This document shows, piece by piece, positions 12,191 through 51,365 of a DNA stretch of 57,653 nucleotides. The translations under genes and the position numbers were made by a program. The stretch's first letter is position 1. The number at the start of each line of letters is the position of its first letter. Location of the stretch: positions 1-57,653 of the forward strand of contig CAYOAY010000001.1 of the NCBI GenBank assembly GCA_964402155.1, written 5' to 3'. Under the pieces are notes generated by a model. That model saw only the letters and a program-made list of their open reading frames with translations. It ran no database searches and was not told where the DNA came from. Source of the stretch: an uncultured Muribaculaceae bacterium (GTDB lineage: Bacteria > Bacillota_I > Bacilli_A > RF39 > UBA660).

Positions 12191-12266
12191 GCTGGGATAG
12201 CTCAGTTGGTAGAGCAACTGACTCGTAATCAGTAGGTCGTAGGTTCAATTCCCATTCTCAGCACCA
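12191..12266 (+). tRNA. tRNA-Thr (anticodon CGT)
   Basis: Manual cloverleaf. Acceptor GCTGGGA/TCTCAGC. D arm GCTC-AGTTGGTA-GAGC. Anticodon arm ACTGA-CTCGTAA-TCAGT. Variable loop AGGTC. T arm GTAGG-TTCAATT-CCCAT (one mismatch). CCA is encoded. Confidence 0.9.
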
Positions 12267-17473: not shown

Positions 17474-17479
17474 ATTTGT

Positions 17480-17701
17480 GCCTGGGGAGTTCGCTTTTTC
17501 ACAAAATTGGCGACCCGAACAAAAAAACATAGGGGACGATGATTATGTGGTGTCGAAGGCCTGCTACGGGTAGGAATCCTAAAATGTAATCTTAAGTCTA
17601 CCACCTTAGAGTAACATGCGGTGGCGCATGGTGATAACGGCTCATCTGGGTTAACTCTACATAATAATCACAAAAGATAAGTTGTTCTTATCTTTTTTTT
17701 C
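17480..17701 (+). ncRNA. Unclassified structured RNA or cis-regulatory leader (~220 nt) ending in an intrinsic terminator
   Basis: A G+C-enriched island in AT-rich intergenic DNA. Clear helices: CATGCG-GTGG-CGCATG (17615-17630), TAGAGTAAC/GTTAACTCTA (17607-17615 with 17650-17659), and GGTAG/CTACC. The terminator AAGATAAG-ttgtt-CTTATCTT plus T8 lies at 17674-17701. I could not match it to any Rfam-type consensus I know. Confidence 0.55.
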
Positions 17702-20108: not shown

Positions 20109-20174
20109 ACCATTCTCCTTATATATATTTGGAAAATGCGAAGCAAGAGTAATATATAATAAATATATAAAAAA

Positions 20175-20262
20175 ACGTATATTTCCCTCCGCTAGTATCA
20201 TCTAGTTCAGGTTCAAAGCGTCGTGGTTACCCCACCTCTCAGCATTAGCTCCGCTAATATAT
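20175..20262 (-). promoter_or_regulatory. TPP (THI-box) riboswitch
   Basis: The minus strand reads AGCGGAGCTAATGCTGAGAGGTGGGGTAACCACGACGCTTTGAACCTGAACTAGATGATACTAGCGGAGGGAA. This contains the conserved CUGAGA, ACC, GAACCUGA and AGCG-AGGGA elements. TATAAT lies just upstream. Confidence 0.9.
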
Positions 20263-20526
20263 CCTTAATCATTATACTAAAAATAATGAACAATGTCAAA
20301 ACTAAAACACCTTTAAGGTTAGTAACATATTTTATTTTTTTGTTATGCTTCCAGTATTAAATAAAATAATACCTTATTACTGTGTTATATAATGGTTTTT
20401 TACTCATATTTCATAATATCATTTATGTTTAAAAATTGAACGATAGTTGTTAAATAATTTATCATAAATACTACATTTGAAAATAGTATATTTGAAGTAC
20501 GTACTCTAGAGATACTTTTAGCACAA

Positions 20527-21235
20527 TCACTTCCAATTTTCGACTATACTATCCTTTTTAAACTCTATTTCTAAAATAAAATTCGGAAATATAACAACAT
20601 TTAATATTTTACCAAAATTTTTTTTAATTAGTCCTTTATCAATCAATGATTTTAAAATATTAATGCTTTTTTTGCTGCAAGATAAATATTTTTCTAAATC
20701 TTGTCTTAATATTTCTTCATTAGTTTTTATAAACTCCAAAGTTTTTTCTTTCTCAAAAGAAAGAATTAATTTTGACATGATGAGGTTCACCATCATTTAT
20801 CGTTATACTCGCCAGCTTTCCTAAGATAATTATTAGTTTTGTTCTATCAGGATTAAAGTTTTCTTCAATAATAGGTTTACTATATCCAAAAATATTAATT
20901 ACATGTAATATTTGTTGGATTCCTGTGCCAGCTCTTTCTCCTATTTTAATTAAACTGAAGATTTTTAAATTGTCTCATTTCTAGAATCATGATTTTCGCT
21001 TGCTAAAGCTTCTTCAATACTCATTCTCATACAACCACTATTATCAAACTCAATCCTATCTTTATATTTTTTAATTATTATTCCTCTTGTACCATAATAA
21101 TCAGCATTTGACAATGTATTACATAAAGCTTCTCTTAGTGCTTTATGCATTTCTGTATCATCAACTCTTTGTGCTCCTTCTAATTTAAAAGAATAAACAA
21201 ATCCTAAACTAATTTGTTATATACTTTAAAAAAGA
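20527..21235 (-). pseudogene. 5'-truncated, frameshifted remnant of an AlbA_2/HATPase_c_4-type ATP-binding regulator (paralogue of 42777-44237)
   Basis: Fragments lie in three frames. MHKALREALCNTLSNADYYG..IEFDNSGCM parallels ASLREAILNAFCHANYL..VKITNPGG. ..IGERAGTGIQQILHVINIFGYSKP.. parallels NYGTGIPRIVKAY. A wHTH-like tail follows (20527-20796). There is no AlbA_2 N-terminal part. Confidence 0.6.
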
Positions 21236-41257: not shown

Positions 41258-42064
41258 TTAATCCTTTTTTATTAACTCATATATGGCATGAGCTACCCCA
41301 CTATGTTCTTGGTCTTTCGTAATATAGGTAGCTTCATTTTTAACTTTACTACTTCCATTTCCCATAGCAACCTTAGTTTTTACTACATCAAACATCGGTA
41401 AGTCGTTTTCTTCATCACCGATTGCCATCAGCATACTACTATCAATTTCTAAGAACTTAGCTAATTCACTTAAAGCAGTTCCTTTATTAGAATCAATTGT
41501 TAAAAATTCTAAAAAATCAGTTGAACTTTTTAATACATTATATTTTCCTTTTAAATTTTCTTTTATAGTATTAACATATATATTTATCTTTTCATCTTCA
41601 TCAGCAATAATTATTTTATTAGCATAAGGAAAACTTCTAAGTTTAGTAATAGGCGTATTTATAAAGTTTATACCTTTAAATACAGGTTTATTAATTATTT
41701 TTGAAGATATTCCTTCTGTATATATATCATTATCTACATAAACTGTAAAAGTTAAACCATATTTAATTATTTCATCAATAATAATATTTATATCATTATT
41801 ATTAAGAACACTACGTTTAATAATTGAATTATTTGTATTATTAGATATATATGCTCCATTATAAGATATTGAATATTCATTATCATAAACTAAGTCTAAT
41901 TCTTTTAAAATAGGCAATACTCTAAAAAATGGTCTTCCACTAGCAATTACAACTTTAATATTATTCTCTTTCGCATAATTAATAGCATCTATATTCTCTT
42001 TTGTTATTTCTTTATTTTTATTAAGTAATGTATCATCTAAATCAATGGCAATAAGTTTAATCAT
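41258..42064 (-). CDS. Cof-type HAD-IIB family phosphatase
   Basis: Motif I IAIDLDDTLL, motif II ASGR, and motif IV GDEENDLPMF. Confidence 0.85.
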   Translation of the reverse strand: MIKLIAIDLDDTLLNKNKEITKENIDAINYAKENNIKVVIASGRPFFRVLPILKELDLVYDNEYSISYNGAYISNNTNNSIIKRSVLNNNDINIIIDEIIKYGLTFTVYVDNDIYTEGISSKIINKPVFKGINFINTPITKLRSFPYANKIIIADEDEKINIYVNTIKENLKGKYNVLKSSTDFLEFLTIDSNKGTALSELAKFLEIDSSMLMAIGDEENDLPMFDVVKTKVAMGNGSSKVKNEATYITKDQEHSGVAHAIYELIKKD

Positions 42065-42154
42065 ATATATACCTATCCTTCTTATAATAATTATACATTT
42101 ATTTTCTTATTTGCCACGTAGTTTGCATTTTTAAATGAAAGTAATAAATAAATT

Positions 42155-42724
42155 TTATTTTTTATTATTCCAATTAAAACCAAAATCAGTTCTCTTAATT
42201 TTACACATATCACCATTATCTCTATAAAAAACAATTCCTTCAATGTAGTGATTCTCTAAATATTGTTTTATACCATCATAAGATAATGTAATATCATTAA
42301 TAACTCTTAATCCATGTTTTTCTAAATAATCATCTTCTAAATGATAAGGATTCCCACTAAAGTGTACTCCAATTAATTCATACGTACCATCAATTAAAGT
42401 TTCGTATTTTTCTTTTGCTTTGACATGCCATTTATCTGATGGATTATTAGGGTCTACTTTTACATAATGAGGAAAGTGACCAGTAATCAAATCAGGTCCT
42501 GCCTGACAAGGAATAGCATTTTTTGGAAGTACTCTTCCTGGTTTATAATCAAATCTTTTATATAGTACTTGATCTTTTACCATACAACAAGTACCATCTA
42601 GTTTTTCAGTCGCAATTACTTTTTCTAAAAAGACCCACTCACATCCTTCTTCTACTTCATTTGTACATCCTTTAACCCTACCATTTTCATAAATTCTTTT
42701 AAATAATGTTTTCATTTTTTTCAT
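42155..42724 (-). CDS. Minimal ATP-dependent RNA/DNA ligase-like nucleotidyltransferase (no OB domain)
   Basis: Covalent nucleotidyltransferase motifs occur in the correct order: I ATEKLDGTCCMV (KxDG), III TYELIGVHFSGNPY, IV IEGIVFY, V MCKIKRTDF. The protein is only ~190 aa. ATG lies 6 nt after GAGGTG; the ORF-track start is that GTG. Confidence 0.6.
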   Translation of the reverse strand: MKKMKTLFKRIYENGRVKGCTNEVEEGCEWVFLEKVIATEKLDGTCCMVKDQVLYKRFDYKPGRVLPKNAIPCQAGPDLITGHFPHYVKVDPNNPSDKWHVKAKEKYETLIDGTYELIGVHFSGNPYHLEDDYLEKHGLRVINDITLSYDGIKQYLENHYIEGIVFYRDNGDMCKIKRTDFGFNWNNKK

Positions 42725-42730
42725 CTTTTT

Positions 42731-42775
42731 CACCTCATATTATAAATAATACGAATTAAAAGCACAAATTCCATT
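42731..42775 (-). promoter_or_regulatory. Copy A of a shared ~45-nt upstream element (promoter/operator candidate) preceding the ligase-like gene
   Basis: The minus strand reads AATGGAATTTGTGCTTTTAATTCGTATTATTTATAATATGAGGTG. It is near-identical to copy B at 44243-44284 and contains TATAAT. Confidence 0.55.
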
Positions 42776-42776
42776 T

Positions 42777-44237
42777 TTATTTTTTTAAATAATAACCACC
42801 ACTTTTTTTAGATCCAACATACTTTATATATTTTTTTATTTTTCTCTTCAACTCATTTCTTACTTTATCTAATGTTACTGAATAATCATCTTGATTAATT
42901 TTATTTACAATATCTATTGCTTTAATTCCTGGATTATCCTTAATTATATTTAAAATTTTGTTCTGTATTTCATTTATTTGGTCATTTATTTGGTCATTTA
43001 TCTGGTCATTTATCTGGTCATTTATTTGGTCATTTATTTGGTCATTTATCTGGTCATTTATTTGGTCATTTATTTGGTCATTTATCTGGTCATTTATTTG
43101 GTCATTTATTTGGTCATTTATTTGGTCATTTATTTGGACATTACAATTTAATACATAATTTAAATTAGGTAAACGAACTATAAAAAAATTTTCTGATGAA
43201 AAAAATTTCGGTTTTTTATCTGAAGAACTATATGCTTTTACAATTCTTGGAATTCCTGTTCCATAATTCTCAATATAATTCAATTTATCAAGTATATGAA
43301 CAAGCTTAGGATTTCTATATGTTTGAATACCATTCATAATATCATTCATTGTTGCATTATATATACCACCAGGATTTGTTATTTTTACTTCATGTGGGAA
43401 AAATTCAATCTTAATATTTGATCTAATAAGATAATTAGCATGACAAAAAGCATTTAATATTGCTTCACGTAACGAAGCACCAGGATATGATTTTGTTTCT
43501 ATCCTTGTAAAAGATTCTCCAGAAATAACTGCAGATGTATCATTAAAAAAATTAGCTTGTTCTTCAATACAAGTAAATACTTTTATTAAAGAACCTTTAA
43601 ATTCTTTTTTTACTAGGAAATTTAGATTATTATCATATCTAGCTATTTTAACAACTAAATTTGACTGATCAGATAAAAGGTAAGCTAAATTTGTATATTT
43701 ATTTTTTTTATTAATTAAACCTAATGTTCTATACTCTCTTATTGAAAACTTAATTTGTTTTTCATCAAAAATACTTGACAAGTATTTAAACGTTAATTTT
43801 TGTAATTCAGAAGTATCTTCTTCATATATATATTTCTGTGAATCTAACATCATTTTTAATATTTCTTCTTCTGTTGCTCTTCTTGAGCTACTACCTACTC
43901 TTTTAAATACTCCTGATGGTTTAGGCCCTTTATCTCTTAAATAATAAGGTTTATGATTTCCTTCTAAAACATTAATAATTAGTATTCCATCTTCAGTAAA
44001 ATTATGTTTAACAAGTTCAAAAGTTGAAGGATATATAGAATGATCCAGCCAATTACTAATTTCTAAATCTATTTTATCCCTATCAATTTCTTTAAATGGT
44101 TCATAAATGGTCTTATCATTATTAACACCAACGTATATTGTCCCACCATTAGTATTTAGAAATGCAATAATTTCATTTTTTATCTTATCAATAAACTCTC
44201 TTTTATATTCAATATTTACGTTTTCATCTTTATTCAT
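42777..44237 (-). CDS. Schlafen/AlbA_2-domain plus HATPase_c_4-like ATP-binding protein with an (INDQ)n linker and a C-terminal winged-HTH-like domain
   Basis: N-terminus NIEYKREF..IIAFLNTNGGTIYVGV (AlbA_2-type). Middle ASLREAILNAFCHANY..ITNPGG..YRNPKL..NYGTGIPRI (HATPase_c_4-type). Then 14 tandem tetrapeptide units and a tail ILNIIKDNPGIKAIDIVNKI.. Start MNKDEN lies after GAGGTG. Confidence 0.7.
   Translation of the reverse strand: MNKDENVNIEYKREFIDKIKNEIIAFLNTNGGTIYVGVNNDKTIYEPFKEIDRDKIDLEISNWLDHSIYPSTFELVKHNFTEDGILIINVLEGNHKPYYLRDKGPKPSGVFKRVGSSSRRATEEEILKMMLDSQKYIYEEDTSELQKLTFKYLSSIFDEKQIKFSIREYRTLGLINKKNKYTNLAYLLSDQSNLVVKIARYDNNLNFLVKKEFKGSLIKVFTCIEEQANFFNDTSAVISGESFTRIETKSYPGASLREAILNAFCHANYLIRSNIKIEFFPHEVKITNPGGIYNATMNDIMNGIQTYRNPKLVHILDKLNYIENYGTGIPRIVKAYSSSDKKPKFFSSENFFIVRLPNLNYVLNCNVQINDQINDQINDQINDQINDQINDQINDQINDQINDQINDQINDQINDQINDQINEIQNKILNIIKDNPGIKAIDIVNKINQDDYSVTLDKVRNELKRKIKKYIKYVGSKKSGGYYLKK
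42970..43137 (-). repeat. In-frame 12-bp tandem repeat, 14 copies, encoding (INDQ)13-INE
   Basis: Plus-strand unit TCATTTATYTGG repeated head-to-tail. The only variation is the synonymous T/C position (CAA/CAG Gln). Confidence 0.95.
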
Positions 44238-44242
44238 TGTTT

Positions 44243-44284
44243 CACCTCTTATAAATAATTCGAATGTAAAACACAAATTCCATT
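44243..44284 (-). promoter_or_regulatory. Copy B of the shared upstream element, preceding the AlbA_2-family gene
   Basis: The minus strand reads AATGGAATTTGTGTTTTACATTCGAATTATTTATAAGAGGTG. It contains the palindrome ATTCGAAT. Confidence 0.55.
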
Positions 44285-44290
44285 AAAAAA

Positions 44291-44307
44291 ATAGGCCTTT
44301 TAGCCTA
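44291..44307 (-). terminator. Intrinsic terminator after pncB
   Basis: ATAGGC-taaaa-GCCTAT overlaps the pncB stop codon and is followed by T7 on the minus strand. Confidence 0.6.
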
Positions 44308-45735
44308 TTTTCTTCCTTTAACTAATAAATCATGTTTAATATTCCATAGTTTTTCTGATAAGTCAACATAATAACCATGGGGATTATCAAAGCGTTTTAC
44401 TTCATCCCATAGTCTTGATAATGAATAAGTACAGAATTTTCTTGATTCTTCTAAAGATGGCACTTTATATACAAGTTTTCCATTCTTAAATATTGGTTTT
44501 TGAAGAGTTTCTGCTGTAAAATTAGTTAGTGTTTTTCGCTTCCAAGTACAACGTGGATCAAATATTTCATATGGTTCAGTTGGAACTTTTTCATCATAAA
44601 CACATAATACATCAGCAAGAGCTTTATTATCTTCATTTGAAAATAATCTATATGTTTTCTTAAAATGAGGTGTTGTTATTTTTCCTTCATTTTCACTTAT
44701 TTTTATTTTTGGAATAATCATTCCATCTTTTTCAATCGCAGCAAGTTTATAGACTCCATCAAATACTGGGTCTGCTTTTGACGTAATTAGTCTTTCACCG
44801 ACACCATATGAATCAATGCATGCGCCTTGGTTTCGAAGTTCTGTAATTAAGTATTCATCTAAACTATTAGATGCGCAAATAGTAACAAAGTTTAATCCTG
44901 CCTCATCTAGCATTTTTCTTGCTTCTTTTGATAAATAAGCGATATCTCCTGAGTCAATTCTTACTCCAGCTTTCTTTAAATTAAATTCTTTAATAACTTT
45001 TATAGCATTAGGAATACCACTTTGTAATACATTATATGTATCAATTAAAAGTACTACATTATCAGGATATAATTTAACATATGCCTTAAATGCTTCATAC
45101 TCAGATTCAAAGGTTTGAACCCAAGAATGAGCCATTGTTCCTAAGGCCTTTACACCATACCACTGATCACAGGTAACACAAGATGTGCCTGCTGCCCCCG
45201 CAATATAGGCTGCACGTGGACCATTGATGGCTGCTGAAGCCCCTTGAGCACGGCGTGCCCCAAATTCCATAACACTTCTACCTTTAGCGGCACGTACTAT
45301 TCTTTCTGCTTTAGTAGCAATAAGGGTTTGATGGTTTATTGTTAAAAGAACAAATGTTTCAATTATTTGAGCTTCAATAATTGGAGCTTTGATTGTTACA
45401 ATTGGTTCATTAGGAAATATAAAGTTACCTTCTTCCACCGCATATATATCTCCACTAAAATGAAAGTCTTTTAAATAGTTTAAGAAGCCTTCCGAGAAAC
45501 AGCCTTTACTTCTTAAATAATTAATATCTTCTTCTGTAAAGTGTAAGTTTTCAATATAATCAATTAATGTTTTAAGTCCTGCGCATACAGCAAATCCTGC
45601 TTGATTAGGGTTTGTACGATAGAACATATCAAAATATACTATTTCATCTTTCATTCCAAGTTCATAATAGCCATTAGCCATTGTTAATTCATAAAAATCA
45701 GTTAAAGTTGTATAGTTATTTAAATCTTTCATCAT
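44305..45735 (-). CDS. pncB: Nicotinate phosphoribosyltransferase
   Basis: 476 aa. TDFYELTMANGY, GTMAHSWVQ and IDSGD are conserved NAPRTase blocks. Confidence 0.9.
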   Translation of the reverse strand: MMKDLNNYTTLTDFYELTMANGYYELGMKDEIVYFDMFYRTNPNQAGFAVCAGLKTLIDYIENLHFTEEDINYLRSKGCFSEGFLNYLKDFHFSGDIYAVEEGNFIFPNEPIVTIKAPIIEAQIIETFVLLTINHQTLIATKAERIVRAAKGRSVMEFGARRAQGASAAINGPRAAYIAGAAGTSCVTCDQWYGVKALGTMAHSWVQTFESEYEAFKAYVKLYPDNVVLLIDTYNVLQSGIPNAIKVIKEFNLKKAGVRIDSGDIAYLSKEARKMLDEAGLNFVTICASNSLDEYLITELRNQGACIDSYGVGERLITSKADPVFDGVYKLAAIEKDGMIIPKIKISENEGKITTPHFKKTYRLFSNEDNKALADVLCVYDEKVPTEPYEIFDPRCTWKRKTLTNFTAETLQKPIFKNGKLVYKVPSLEESRKFCTYSLSRLWDEVKRFDNPHGYYVDLSEKLWNIKHDLLVKGRK

Positions 45736-51000: not shown

Positions 51001-51365
51001 TGGTGGACCTGAGGGTAGTCGAAACCCTGTCCGAGAAATGTTAGGCTTTGCTTTCTACATATTTAGTTTATCTATTAAATTTCATAACTAAAAGTAAGAT
51101 AAACAAAATCTTTTAGTTACTAGCTTAATTATCTTGATTCATACCTCAAGCTATGGTAATTATCAAAGCCTACTCTCTTTCCCTTATTATACACGTAGGC
51201 TAGTATATTAAGAGATAAATCAAAATTAATTGATTACTTGCTTATGCTAGCAAGCGAAAGCGTAATTTGTGTTTGCGTTTAATTTAATAAACCTCAGGTT
51301 TTAACGTGCCTACCCACGATATGCTTACATTGCTTCACATAGCCCGTCGAAACCAGTACAGGCCC
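51001..51365 (-). ncRNA. ssrA: tmRNA (SsrA)
   Basis: The minus-strand 5' end is GGGCCTGTACTGGTTTCGACGGG and the 3' end is GGACAGGGTTTCGACTACCCTCAGGTCCACCA. This gives a tRNA-Ala-like acceptor with G3-U and a T-arm. The candidate tag ORF is GCA AAC ACA AAT TAC GCT TTC GCT TGC TAG (ANTNYAFAC), with its stop in the loop of hairpin CTTGCT/AGCAAG. Confidence 0.9.

What the first reader, a model, noticed from the sequence alone, without database searches (positions are those of the whole stretch)
42155..44284. Two-gene module: minimal KxDG ligase-like enzyme plus Schlafen/AlbA_2-HATPase-wHTH protein, each preceded by the same ~45-nt element
Both genes sit between housekeeping genes (a Cof phosphatase and the pncB terminator). 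Each is preceded by a near-identical sequence, AATGGAATTTGTG(C/T)TTT..ATTCG(T/A)ATTATTTATAA..GAGGTG, at 42731-42775 and 44243-44284. A duplicated 5' region on two adjacent, unrelated genes argues for common control or joint acquisition. Copy B contains the palindrome ATTCGAAT, so the wHTH tail of the AlbA_2 protein is a candidate binder, but that is inference. The ~190-aa protein carries ligase/capping-enzyme motifs I, III, IV and V but has no OB or other accessory domain, so it would need a partner for substrate recognition. AlbA_2/Schlafen-type domains fused to HATPase_c_4 are widespread but functionally unassigned, and Schlafen-fold proteins elsewhere act on tRNA/RNA during conflicts. Pairing one with an RNA-repair-type ligase would fit a nucleic-acid damage/repair or stress/defence module that I do not recognise as a described system. 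A decayed paralogue of the large gene at 20527-21235 suggests the family is gained and lost.
Basis: partly seen in the sequence, partly recalled or inferred. Interest (0 to 1): 0.7.

Follow-up and report, generated by a model that had tools for sequence, protein, structure and literature searches.

The report
Variable RNA-ligase/Schlafen-like islet with duplicated leader
Two accessory genes lie between pncB and cof, a tiny phage-type RNA-repair ligase and a Schlafen-like ATP-binding protein; each has its own copy of one short upstream sequence, but they belong to known families, occur without each other in sister strains, and show no sign of forming a new two-part system.

Summary
Two ~45-50-nt direct repeats (42725-42775 and 44238-44284, minus strand) fill the whole 5' intergenic region of two adjacent genes. 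Their similarity far exceeds that of any other pair of upstream regions in the window.

The small gene is a full-length RLIG1/C12orf29-family RNA ligase (PF17720). All catalytic residues are present, and a confident model matches the Yasminevirus RLIG1 crystal structure. Homologues of this family ligate tRNA halves without a partner, and its nearest relatives are phage genes.

The large gene is a COG2865-type protein with a Schlafen-like AlbA_2 domain, a GHKL ATP-binding domain, an expandable QIND helical linker and a wHTH.

The "new two-gene module" interpretation is only partly supported. The pair was co-inherited through ~21% nucleotide divergence. However, a 99%-identical strain has lost AlbA2 precisely between the repeats. 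A second lineage also lacks AlbA2. Another strain keeps AlbA2 beside a ligase pseudogene.

The two families are not neighbours elsewhere: no AlbA2 relative in 73 ligase loci, no RLIG1-type ligase in 87 AlbA2 loci, one of which has an unrelated small ligase. The ATTCGAAT palindrome is not conserved.

Best reading: a strain-variable islet at a hot spot that holds a restriction-modification system in a sister strain, with a duplicated promoter/RBS leader. Interest is modest.

The parts
44288..44311 (-). pncB intrinsic terminator hairpin followed by a T-run. It forms the left boundary of the islet.
   Evidence: 9-bp stem plus T-run. The same hairpin precedes the single element in the AlbA2-less strain L168.
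44238..44284 (-). Element copy B, the complete 5' intergenic region of AlbA2. It has a conserved ATGGAATTT block, a variable 11-12-nt spacer, a conserved TTCG(A/T)ATTATTTATAA block, and the SD GAGGTG (44243-44248). The promoter-plus-RBS role is inferred.
   Evidence: No room exists for another promoter between the terminator and the ATG. The tool's strict sigma-70 scan did not flag it.
42777..44237 (-). AlbA2 gene (486 aa). Domains: Schlafen-like AlbA_2 (aa ~5-121), GHKL-type HATPase_c_4 (aa ~273-356), helical QIND-repeat linker, C-terminal wHTH (aa ~423-486).
   Evidence: Pfam PF04326 E 7e-17 and PF13749 E 1e-16. PHROG 12156. AF2 model pLDDT 84. Foldseek: 3lmm E 6e-18; N-domain matches SLFN13/14/12/5/11 and the SAMD9 tRNase domain; middle domain matches GHKL kinases. 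E5, E10 and K12 are invariant and D41 is present in 30/32 homologues.
42970..43142 (-). 12-nt tandem repeat, 14.4 copies, encoding (DQIN)n in the linker of AlbA2.
   Evidence: L176 has 7 copies. Homologues have 0-4 copies. Assemblies L001 and L177-178 break here.
42725..42775 (-). Element copy A, the complete 5' intergenic region of the ligase gene (SD 42731-42736). With copy B it forms a direct repeat flanking AlbA2.
   Evidence: It is conserved upstream of the ligase in L001, L058, L168, L169-172 and L176.
42155..42724 (-). RLIG1-family minimal ATP-dependent 5'-P/3'-OH RNA ligase (189 aa, NTase domain only).
   Evidence: PF17720 49.6 bits against a cut-off of 25. PDB 9c6l E 2e-14. PHROG 14301 'RNA ligase' E 3e-53, full length. 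AF2 pLDDT 91.6. Foldseek 9c6l E 1e-10, TM 0.77. K41, D43, R57, E116, H137, E162 and K175 are invariant in 30 homologues.
42065..42154 (-). Spacer between the ligase and cof, carrying a promoter-like site (GTGGCA-16-TATAAT, 42117-42090). It forms the right boundary of the islet.
   Evidence: In L173 pncB and cof are only 11 nt apart, so this spacer came in with the insertion.
20530..21216 (-). Decayed C-terminal half (HATPase_c_4, GTGI motif, wHTH) of a distant COG2865-type gene, in three frames.
   Evidence: PF13749 E 4.6e-4, below cut-off; collinear fragments, best E 8e-6.

Best explanation
The region is a strain-variable accessory islet inserted between pncB and cof of an uncultured, ~25% G+C Bacilli-like bacterium. 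It carries two genes that are probably co-expressed but can each be lost separately.

Gene 1 is a stand-alone RLIG1/C12orf29-family RNA ligase. Following the family mechanism (inferred for this protein), Lys41 of EKLDG is adenylylated by ATP. AMP then passes to a 5'-phosphate RNA end, and a 3'-OH attacks to seal the break. tRNA anticodon-loop nicks are the best-documented substrate in this family. Its closest relatives outside the lineage sit in phage genomes, so it is most likely a domesticated phage RNA-repair gene.

Gene 2 is a COG2865-type protein with a Schlafen-like AlbA_2 domain, a GHKL ATP-binding domain, an expandable helical QIND linker and a wHTH. Its function is unknown. Other bacterial AlbA_2 proteins are enriched near defence systems.

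The repeated 45-50 nt is a duplicated compact leader. It has a conserved ATGGAATTT block, a variable spacer, a conserved CG(T/A)ATTAT(T/A)TATAA block and the SD GAGGTG. It most likely acts as promoter plus ribosome-binding site for each gene (inferred).

Because the two copies are direct repeats flanking AlbA2, they also allow precise loss of that gene by homologous recombination. One sister strain shows exactly this deletion.
For: Ligase identity, shown here:
- Pfam, PDB, PHROG, fold match and catalytic residues all agree.
- Stand-alone activity of bacterial, phage and giant-virus homologues on tRNA halves is published (PMC11494293).

Phage ancestry:
- Homologues with 65-66% identity lie in phage contigs carrying Sak, SSB, NinB, terminase and capsid genes.
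- 24 IMG/VR contigs and 25 GenBank phage records carry the family.

AlbA2 architecture.

Insertion into a variable site:
- L173 (PncB 88%) has pncB and cof 11 nt apart.
- L175 (PncB 91%) has a type II methyltransferase (E 2e-205) plus an endonuclease-like gene at the same site.

Co-inheritance: L058 aligns as one 842-nt block at 79% identity across the AlbA2 3' end, the element and the ligase.

Separate loss:
- L168 is 98.4-99.4% identical on both sides but lacks exactly the ~1.5 kb between the repeats. Its single element has copy B's left flank and copy A's right part.
- L169-172 lack AlbA2 but keep the A-run of its 3' end.
- L176 keeps an intact 458-aa AlbA2. Its ligase has a 1-nt insertion and a 65-nt deletion that removes motif IIIa.
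- Ligase fragments of 51 and 111 aa are on record from further contigs of the same protein cluster.

Leader role:
- In L168 and L169 the element is all that lies between the pncB terminator and the ligase ATG.
- Across 8 variants, two blocks at a fixed distance are conserved around a variable spacer, followed by the SD.
Against: - No transcription start is mapped. The tool's sigma-70 scan did not flag either copy, and the -35-like block is weak against TTGACA.
- Long co-inheritance of the pair with matched leaders could reflect a functional link.
- Ligase homologues in other genomes sit directly downstream of another defence-candidate ATPase: AAA_14-DUF4143, PADLOC PDC-S01, in 30 of 49 loci.
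- One AlbA2 homologue lies near a different small RNA ligase.
- The pseudogene calls rest on metagenome assemblies.
Confidence: 0.6

Rival explanations
1. The two genes form a functional cut-and-reseal pair. The Schlafen-like AlbA_2 domain of the large protein, gated by its GHKL ATP-binding domain and wHTH, nicks tRNA or rRNA during phage attack or stress. The nicks carry 5'-P/3'-OH ends. The co-expressed RLIG1 ligase reseals them, which makes the arrest reversible or protects the cell from leaky activity.
For: - The pair is adjacent, on the same strand, has matched leaders and was co-inherited through ~21% nucleotide divergence.
- The AlbA_2 N-domain matches SLFN and SAMD9 tRNase domains.
- E5, E10 and K12 are invariant and align with SLFN12 E200/E205.
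- The SLFN13 authors liken its carboxylate triad to the Mg-dependent RNase E and RNase III sites (PMC5862951). Enzymes of that type leave 5'-P/3'-OH ends (my own knowledge), which is what RLIG1 seals.
- Bacterial AlbA_2 domains are reported to be enriched near defence systems (PMC12680541).
- The ligase is also found behind the defence candidate PDC-S01, and a different small ligase lies near AlbA2 homologue P0124.
Against: - No co-occurrence outside the lineage: no AlbA2 relative in 73 ligase loci and no RLIG1-type ligase in 87 AlbA2 loci.
- Each gene survives without the other in near-identical strains, including an intact AlbA2 beside a dead ligase.
- The third SLFN catalytic Asp aligns to a variable column, N30 here.
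- 27 of the 30 PDC-S01-ligase loci share flanking genes and so count as about one event. That leaves roughly 4 independent contexts.
- PADLOC has no model for the pair.
Confidence: 0.2
2. The repeated element is mainly an operator. The wHTH of the AlbA2 protein, or another regulator, binds both copies and so autoregulates AlbA2 and co-regulates the ligase.
For: - Two near-identical 5' regions lie upstream of adjacent genes.
- The protein has a C-terminal wHTH.
- Upstream regions of homologues carry operator-like inverted repeats (TTTGGTCA...TGACCAAA) around the -10. Autoregulation is therefore plausible for the family.
Against: - The ATTCGAAT palindrome occurs only in the window's copy B. Copy A and the copy B of L176-179 read ATTCGTAT.
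- The window element lacks the TGACYAAA motif seen in homologues.
- The element is kept unchanged in strains that have lost AlbA2, so it works without that protein.
Confidence: 0.12
3. The repeats are recombination sites of a cassette-type mobile element, integron-like or otherwise site-specific, and AlbA2 and the ligase are captured cassettes.
For: - Direct repeats flank AlbA2 exactly, and a sister strain lacks exactly the repeat-to-repeat segment.
- The site downstream of pncB holds different cargo in relatives.
Against: - No recombinase appears among the flanking genes: PncA, PncB, FeoB, Cof, CBS, Mac and OAD_beta.
- The element has no attC-like imperfect palindrome.
- No third copy follows the ligase.
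- The second AlbA2-less lineage has different deletion end points, in T/A runs. That fits ordinary recombination.
- The element was not found in viral contigs.
Confidence: 0.05

Closest known systems
RLIG1 / C12orf29 family (Pfam PF17720; Yasminevirus RLIG1, PDB 9C6L/9C6M; human RLIG1)
   Same: All nucleotidyltransferase motifs are conserved: K41/D43, R57, E116, H137, E162 and K175 correspond to YspRLIG1 K73/D75, R89, E174, H195, E240 and K253. The protein has the same minimal NTase-only fold without an RNA-binding domain (Foldseek E 1e-10, TM 0.77). The family is reported in bacteria, viruses and metazoans.
   Different: It is shorter, at 189 aa against 277 (YspRLIG1) and 325 (human), with only ~24% identity to YspRLIG1. 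It belongs to the ~190-aa bacterial/phage subgroup (PHROG 14301). Activity of this particular protein is untested.
Phage T4 Rnl1 with Pnkp (tRNA repair against the PrrC anticodon nuclease)
   Same: It is an ATP-dependent 5'-P/3'-OH RNA ligase. Relatives are phage-encoded, and family members seal tRNA anticodon-loop breaks.
   Different: There is no C-terminal tRNA-binding domain, and the fold match to Rnl1 is weak (Foldseek E 0.16-0.2). The window islet holds no kinase/phosphatase end-healing partner.
COG2865 proteins (AlbA_2 + HATPase_c_4 + wHTH; e.g. DIP2311, PDB 3LMM; annotated 'ATP-binding protein', 'RecG-related' or 'predicted HTH transcriptional regulator')
   Same: The domain order and fold are the same.
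   Different: The QIND linker is strongly expanded: 14 repeats against 0-4 in homologues and 7 in a sister strain. The function of the whole family is unknown.
Schlafen and SAMD9 AlbA_2 tRNA nucleases, and bacterial Avs9
   Same: The N-terminal domain is structurally similar. The two Glu of the ExxxxE(x)K motif are conserved. Bacterial AlbA_2 domains are reported near defence systems.
   Different: It has a single AlbA_2 lobe fused to a GHKL domain, not a STAND or helicase architecture. The third catalytic Asp position is not conserved. No nuclease activity is known for COG2865 proteins.
AAA_14-DUF4143 ATPases (COG1373; PADLOC candidate PDC-S01) followed by an RLIG1-like ligase in uncultured Clostridia
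   Same: A small RLIG1-type ligase lies directly downstream, on the same strand, of an orphan ATP-binding protein that carries a nuclease-fold domain. DUF4143 is classed as PD-(D/E)XK.
   Different: The partner family is different, and the gap of 8-44 nt carries no duplicated leader. 27 of 30 cases share one synteny block.

Membership tests
RLIG1 (PF17720) RNA ligase | Match to the family profile above the curated threshold | tested here: met
   PF17720 scores 49.6 bits against a cut-off of 25. PHROG 14301 matches full length at E 3e-53. PDB 9c6l gives E 2e-14.
RLIG1 (PF17720) RNA ligase | Motif I KxDG lysine plus motifs Ia, III, IIIa, IV and V | tested here: met
   K41/D43, R57, E116, H137, E162 and K175 align to the mutationally validated YspRLIG1 residues. 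All are invariant in 30 homologues.
RLIG1 (PF17720) RNA ligase | Minimal ATP-grasp/NTase fold without an OB or RNA-binding domain | tested here: met
   The AF2 model has pLDDT 91.6. The top 12 Foldseek PDB matches are all YspRLIG1 chains (E 1e-10, TMq 0.77). Next come NgrRnl and T4 Rnl1 at E above 0.04.
RLIG1 (PF17720) RNA ligase | Auto-adenylylation and 5'-P/3'-OH RNA sealing | not testable with these tools
   Shown for human, Yasminevirus, bacterial and phage homologues in PMC11494293, but not for this protein.
T4 Rnl1-type tRNA repair ligase | C-terminal tRNA-specificity domain and a Pnkp end-healing partner | tested here: not met
   The 189-aa protein ends after motif V. The Rnl1 fold match is weak, E 0.16. 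The window islet holds only AlbA2 and the ligase, with no kinase/phosphatase gene.
COG2865 (AlbA_2-HATPase_c_4-wHTH) | Both Pfam domains above threshold, in this order, plus a C-terminal wHTH | tested here: met
   PF04326 scores 62.4 bits (cut-off 25.3) and PF13749 scores 60.8 bits (cut-off 26). The 3lmm fold match is E 6e-18. The C-terminal three-helix-plus-hairpin is modelled at pLDDT 82-92. HTH_24 is weak by sequence, E 0.14.
Schlafen-type RNase | Three-carboxylate active site (E, E, D; SLFN13 E205/E210/D248) | tested here: inconclusive
   E5 and E10 are invariant and align to the two SLFN12 Glu residues. The Asp position aligns to a variable column (N30). A different Asp, D41, is present in 30/32 homologues.
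Obligate two-gene defence or toxin-antidote system | The two families recur as neighbours across unrelated genomes | tested here: not met
   No AlbA2 relative in 49 genome or 24 viral ligase loci. No RLIG1-type ligase in 80 metagenome loci or in the 7 loci of the two closest AlbA2 homologues; one of these, L063, has a PF09414 ligase two genes away.
Obligate two-gene defence or toxin-antidote system | Neither gene persists without the other | tested here: not met
   L168 and L169-172 have the ligase only. L176 has an intact AlbA2 with a ligase pseudogene.
Known PADLOC defence systems | Match to a system protein model | tested here: not met
   The ligase has no hit. AlbA2 has only partial hits: E 7.5e-9 to 140 residues of an 876-position Argonaute-associated profile.
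Integron-type gene cassette | attC-like imperfect palindrome after each cassette and an integrase nearby | tested here: not met
   The element contains no inverted repeat. No copy follows the ligase. No recombinase appears in the flanking genes.
Known structured RNA (Rfam) | Covariance-model match of the element | tested here: not met
   Nothing reaches gathering score in the window at these coordinates. Only noise appears at E of 0.3 or more.

The most novel reading that the evidence does not exclude
RLIG1-type minimal ligases may be recruited repeatedly next to orphan ATP-binding proteins that carry nuclease-fold domains. Examples are the Schlafen-like AlbA_2-GHKL-wHTH protein here, the AAA_14-DUF4143 (PDC-S01) protein in Clostridia, and a different small ligase beside another AlbA2 homologue. 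Together they would form a previously undescribed reversible 'cut-and-reseal' RNA-targeting immunity or dormancy module. The duplicated leader in this window would then ensure stoichiometric co-expression.
Probability: 0.12. Interest if true: 0.75.

Novelty: new member of a known kind. Interest (0 to 1): 0.33.

Why it matters
The locus gives a clean natural example of three things. A phage-type RNA-repair ligase has settled in a bacterial chromosome at a variable, defence-type hot spot. A short promoter/RBS leader has been duplicated onto a neighbouring gene. The resulting direct repeats make that gene precisely excisable.

It also offers a compact 189-aa RLIG1 enzyme for biochemistry. The natural variants (both genes intact, ligase only, AlbA2 with a dead ligase, neither gene) form a ready-made genetic series. 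That series could test whether Schlafen-like COG2865 proteins damage RNA and whether RLIG1 ligases counteract the damage.

As it stands, neither gene nor the pairing establishes a new kind of system.

Tried and rejected
- Rfam found no family at the element.
- A viral-contig scan for the element gave 0 matches.
- The element was not found in any of the 57 loci held at that point, apart from orthologous copies that differ by a base.
- The conserved-operator idea for ATTCGAAT was rejected because the palindrome is absent from copy A and from the copy B of sister strains.
- The canonical sigma-70 reading TTGTGY-17-TATAAT was considered. It is disfavoured because the -35 part is not conserved (AAC in L058 and L169), the -10 degrades to TATAAG or TATGAT, and the start would fall on or after the SD. 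The better-conserved ATGGAA/TATTAT blocks are preferred. The blocks also resemble a sigma-H-type GGAATTT-N11-CGAAT promoter; this comes from memory and was not tested.
- The PDC-S01-ligase adjacency was considered as independent support for a functional theme. It was down-weighted after 27 of 30 loci proved to share flanking genes.
- The AlbA2-less arrangement in L168 was considered as the ancestral empty site. This was rejected because the AlbA2-element-ligase block is co-diverged in L058, and L169 keeps the AlbA2 3' A-run.
- The Burroughs and Aravind 2016 RNA-repair survey is not held in the library.
- Source names for the window proteins are not on record.


Full report
**1. What is in the sequence**

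Both genes lie on the minus strand.
- The small gene is 42155-42724. It starts at ATG, encodes 189 aa beginning MKKMKTLF like all homologues, and has the SD GAGGTG 6 nt upstream.
- The large gene is 42777-44237. It starts at ATG, encodes 486 aa beginning MNKDEN, and has the SD 5 nt upstream.
- pncB ends at 44305 and is followed by a hairpin terminator at 44288-44311.
- A Cof-type phosphatase follows at 41258-42064.

The two 5' intergenic regions, 42725-42775 (copy A) and 44238-44284 (copy B), are direct repeats. About 40 of 44 positions are identical, with one 3-nt indel.
- Each half of the element occurs only at these two places in the window.
- Among 1081 pairs of upstream regions of window genes, this pair scores 34. 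The mean is 11.4 and the next best is 22.

**2. The small protein**

It is a member of the RLIG1/C12orf29 family.
- PF17720 scores 49.6 bits against a cut-off of 25.
- PHROG 14301 'RNA ligase' matches end to end at E 3e-53.
- The only significant PDB sequence match is Yasminevirus RLIG1 (9c6l, E 2e-14).
- The residues shown by mutation to be needed in that enzyme are K73, D75, R89, E174, H195, E240 and K253 (PMC11494293). They align to K41, D43, R57, E116, H137, E162 and K175 here. All are invariant in 30 homologues.
- An AlphaFold model (pLDDT 91.6) matches the 9c6l and 9c6m chains first (E 1e-10, TM 0.77). NgrRnl and T4 Rnl1 match only marginally.

The same paper reports that bacterial and phage homologues ligate tRNA halves with 5'-P/3'-OH ends in vitro. 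It also reports that the viral enzyme is a minimal fold without an RNA-binding domain.

The family is large, with 850 relatives of about 190 aa. It is frequent in phages:
- mycobacteriophages, Cellulophaga phi10:1, and Ralstonia and Burkholderia jumbo phages;
- 24 IMG/VR contigs;
- the closest relatives outside the window's lineage (65-66% identity), which sit in phage contigs.

**3. The large protein**

Pfam finds SLFN_AlbA_2 and HATPase_c_4 above threshold. The AlphaFold model (pLDDT 84) matches several structures.
- The uncharacterised DIP2311 structure 3lmm matches along most of its length (E 6e-18).
- The N-domain matches SLFN13, 14, 12, 5 and 11 and the SAMD9 tRNase domain.
- The middle domain matches GHKL kinases.

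A helix built from 13-14 DQIN repeats leads to a C-terminal wHTH. The repeats are encoded by a 12-nt tandem repeat of 14.4 copies at 42970-43142.

E5, E10 and K12 are invariant and align with the two catalytic Glu of SLFN12. The third Schlafen carboxylate aligns with a variable column (N30). A different Asp, D41, is nearly invariant. Nuclease competence is therefore open.

Sources annotate homologues only as 'ATP-binding', 'putative DNA binding domain-containing', 'RNA-binding domain-containing' or 'predicted HTH transcriptional regulator'.

**4. Are the two families partners?**

- None of 49 genome loci with a ligase homologue (flanks of up to 10 kb) has an AlbA2 relative, by tblastn or by a family HMM.
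- The same is true of 24 viral loci.
- None of 80 metagenome loci with AlbA2 homologues (47-65% identity; flanks of up to 6 kb, many contigs shorter) has an RLIG1-type ligase.
- Neither do the six contigs of the closest homologue, P0121.
- The single exception of a sort is L063. There an AlbA2 homologue is followed by a PRiA4_ORF3 gene and then a 219-aa PF09414 ligase, a different ligase family.

The commonest genomic partner of the ligase is instead an AAA_14-DUF4143 ATPase directly upstream (30 of 49 loci). This ATPase is PADLOC candidate PDC-S01. However, 27 of those 30 loci share flanking genes, so there are only about four independent contexts.

**5. History of the site**

PncB orthologues give a graded series.

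| Locus | PncB identity | Arrangement downstream of pncB |
|---|---|---|
| L173 | 88% | pncB and cof 11 nt apart; neither gene present |
| L175 | 91% | Type II methyltransferase plus an endonuclease-like gene on the other strand |
| L058 | not on the 986-nt contig (ligase 79% identical to the window's) | AlbA2 3' end, element and ligase align to the window as one 842-nt block at 79% identity |
| L169-172 | 91% | No AlbA2. The terminator is followed by AAAAATAAAA, the A-run of the AlbA2 3' end, and then the element. Ligase 95% identical to L058's, so same lineage |
| L168 | 99% | 98.4-99.4% identical on both sides but lacks exactly the ~1.5 kb between the repeats |
| L176-179 | 99% (NCBI GCA_964653035.1) | Both element copies and an intact 458-aa AlbA2 with 7 repeats. 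In L176 the ligase has a 1-nt insertion near codon 33 and a 65-nt deletion that removes motif IIIa; the L177-179 contigs end before the ligase |

- The L058 result shows that the arrangement predates the split of the two lineages.
- The single element in L168 carries copy B's left flank and copy A's right part. This is the expected product of recombination between the repeats.
- Ligase fragments of 51 and 111 aa are on record from further contigs of the same protein cluster.

In summary, the islet was gained at a pncB-cof junction that behaves as a variable hot spot. It was inherited as a pair. Since then each gene has been lost separately.

**6. What the element is**

Eight variants show a conserved ATG(G/T)AATTT block, a variable 11-12-nt spacer and a conserved T(T/A)CG(T/A)ATTAT(T/A)TAT(A/G)A block, followed by GAGGTG and the start codon.

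In AlbA2-less strains the element is the only sequence between a terminator and the ligase ATG. I therefore read it as a compact promoter plus RBS that has been duplicated.
- This is inferred. No transcription start is known.
- The strict sigma-70 scan does not flag it.
- No Rfam family matches.
- The ATTCGAAT palindrome is private to the window's copy B. This argues against a conserved operator for the wHTH.

**7. Verdict**

- The identity of both genes is secure and both belong to known families.
- The repeat is real. It is best explained as a duplicated leader that also makes AlbA2 precisely excisable.
- A functional nuclease/repair partnership is not excluded. Co-inheritance, Schlafen-like fold, compatible end chemistry by analogy, and the ligase's habit of sitting behind defence-candidate ATPases all speak for it. 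Comparative evidence is mostly against it. I give it about 0.2.
- Novelty: new member of a known kind. Interest: about 0.33.

Noticed in passing
L027, L029-L033, L035-L044, L047 (about 100 nt into each ligase gene): In 17 species of uncultured Clostridia the RLIG1-like ligase gene carries the same 1-nt insertion after codon ~33. The sequence reads TGG GTA YTR RAN C GGA GAA GG, where intact genes read ...GAT GGA GAA GG. Both the upstream and the +1 downstream frames stay open, keep all catalytic residues, and appear to differ mostly at synonymous sites. This looks like a conserved programmed +1 frameshift at a rare CGG codon, not a set of pseudogenes.
   Followed up: partly
L012-L056 (30 of 49 genome loci), directly upstream of the ligase match: An AAA_14-DUF4143 ATPase lies 8-250 nt upstream of the ligase on the same strand. 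It is COG1373, carries a PD-(D/E)XK-class domain, and matches PADLOC candidate PDC-S01 at E 5e-157. 27 of the 30 loci share flanking genes, so they form mostly one conserved synteny block.
   Followed up: partly
window 42970-43142; L003 4840-4895; L063, L064 and other AlbA2 loci: The DQIN linker repeat (GAC CAA ATA AAT, 14 copies) contains TGACCAAAT every 12 nt. The same 8-9-mer and its complement (TTTGGTCA...TGACCAAA) bracket the -10 region upstream of several AlbA2 homologues, like an operator. Copy number varies: 14 in the window, 7 in L176 and 0-4 in homologues. Assemblies break at the repeat.
   Followed up: partly
L063 6001-10666: AlbA2 homologue P0124 (62% identity) is followed by a PRiA4_ORF3 protein, a 219-aa PF09414 RNA ligase, an XRE-type HTH gene on the opposite strand, and a 444-aa Metallophos phosphoesterase. 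This may be an RNA-repair-like cluster next to a COG2865 gene.
   Followed up: partly
L175 3406-6641; L174 1-2419: The site downstream of pncB holds a type II DNA methyltransferase (E 2e-205) plus an endonuclease-like gene in a strain with 91% PncB identity. A Cas9-Cas1-Cas2 locus lies a few kb upstream of pncA in a relative with 84% PncB identity. The neighbourhood behaves as a defence-gene hot spot.
   Followed up: partly
L176 3508-3997; proteins P0362, P0363, P0365: The ligase is disrupted in L176, a strain with 99% PncB identity, by a 1-nt insertion near codon 33 and a 65-nt deletion. Fragments of 51 and 111 aa from further contigs suggest a second disruption. AlbA2 stays intact in L176.
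   Followed up: yes
window 20530-21216 (-), next to the TPP riboswitch at 20167-20265: A fragmented remnant of the C-terminal half of a distant COG2865-type gene (HATPase_c_4, GTGI motif, wHTH) lies in three reading frames. No AlbA_2 part is detectable.
   Followed up: yes
window 51001-51365 (-), 17476-17656 (+), 12191-12263 (+), 20167-20265 (-): Rfam finds tmRNA, 6S RNA, one tRNA and a TPP riboswitch in the window.
   Followed up: no
L169 1639-2862: The lineage with 91% PncB identity carries an extra AAA_14-DUF4143 (PDC-S01) gene between a MatE gene and feoB. This gene is absent from the window.
   Followed up: no
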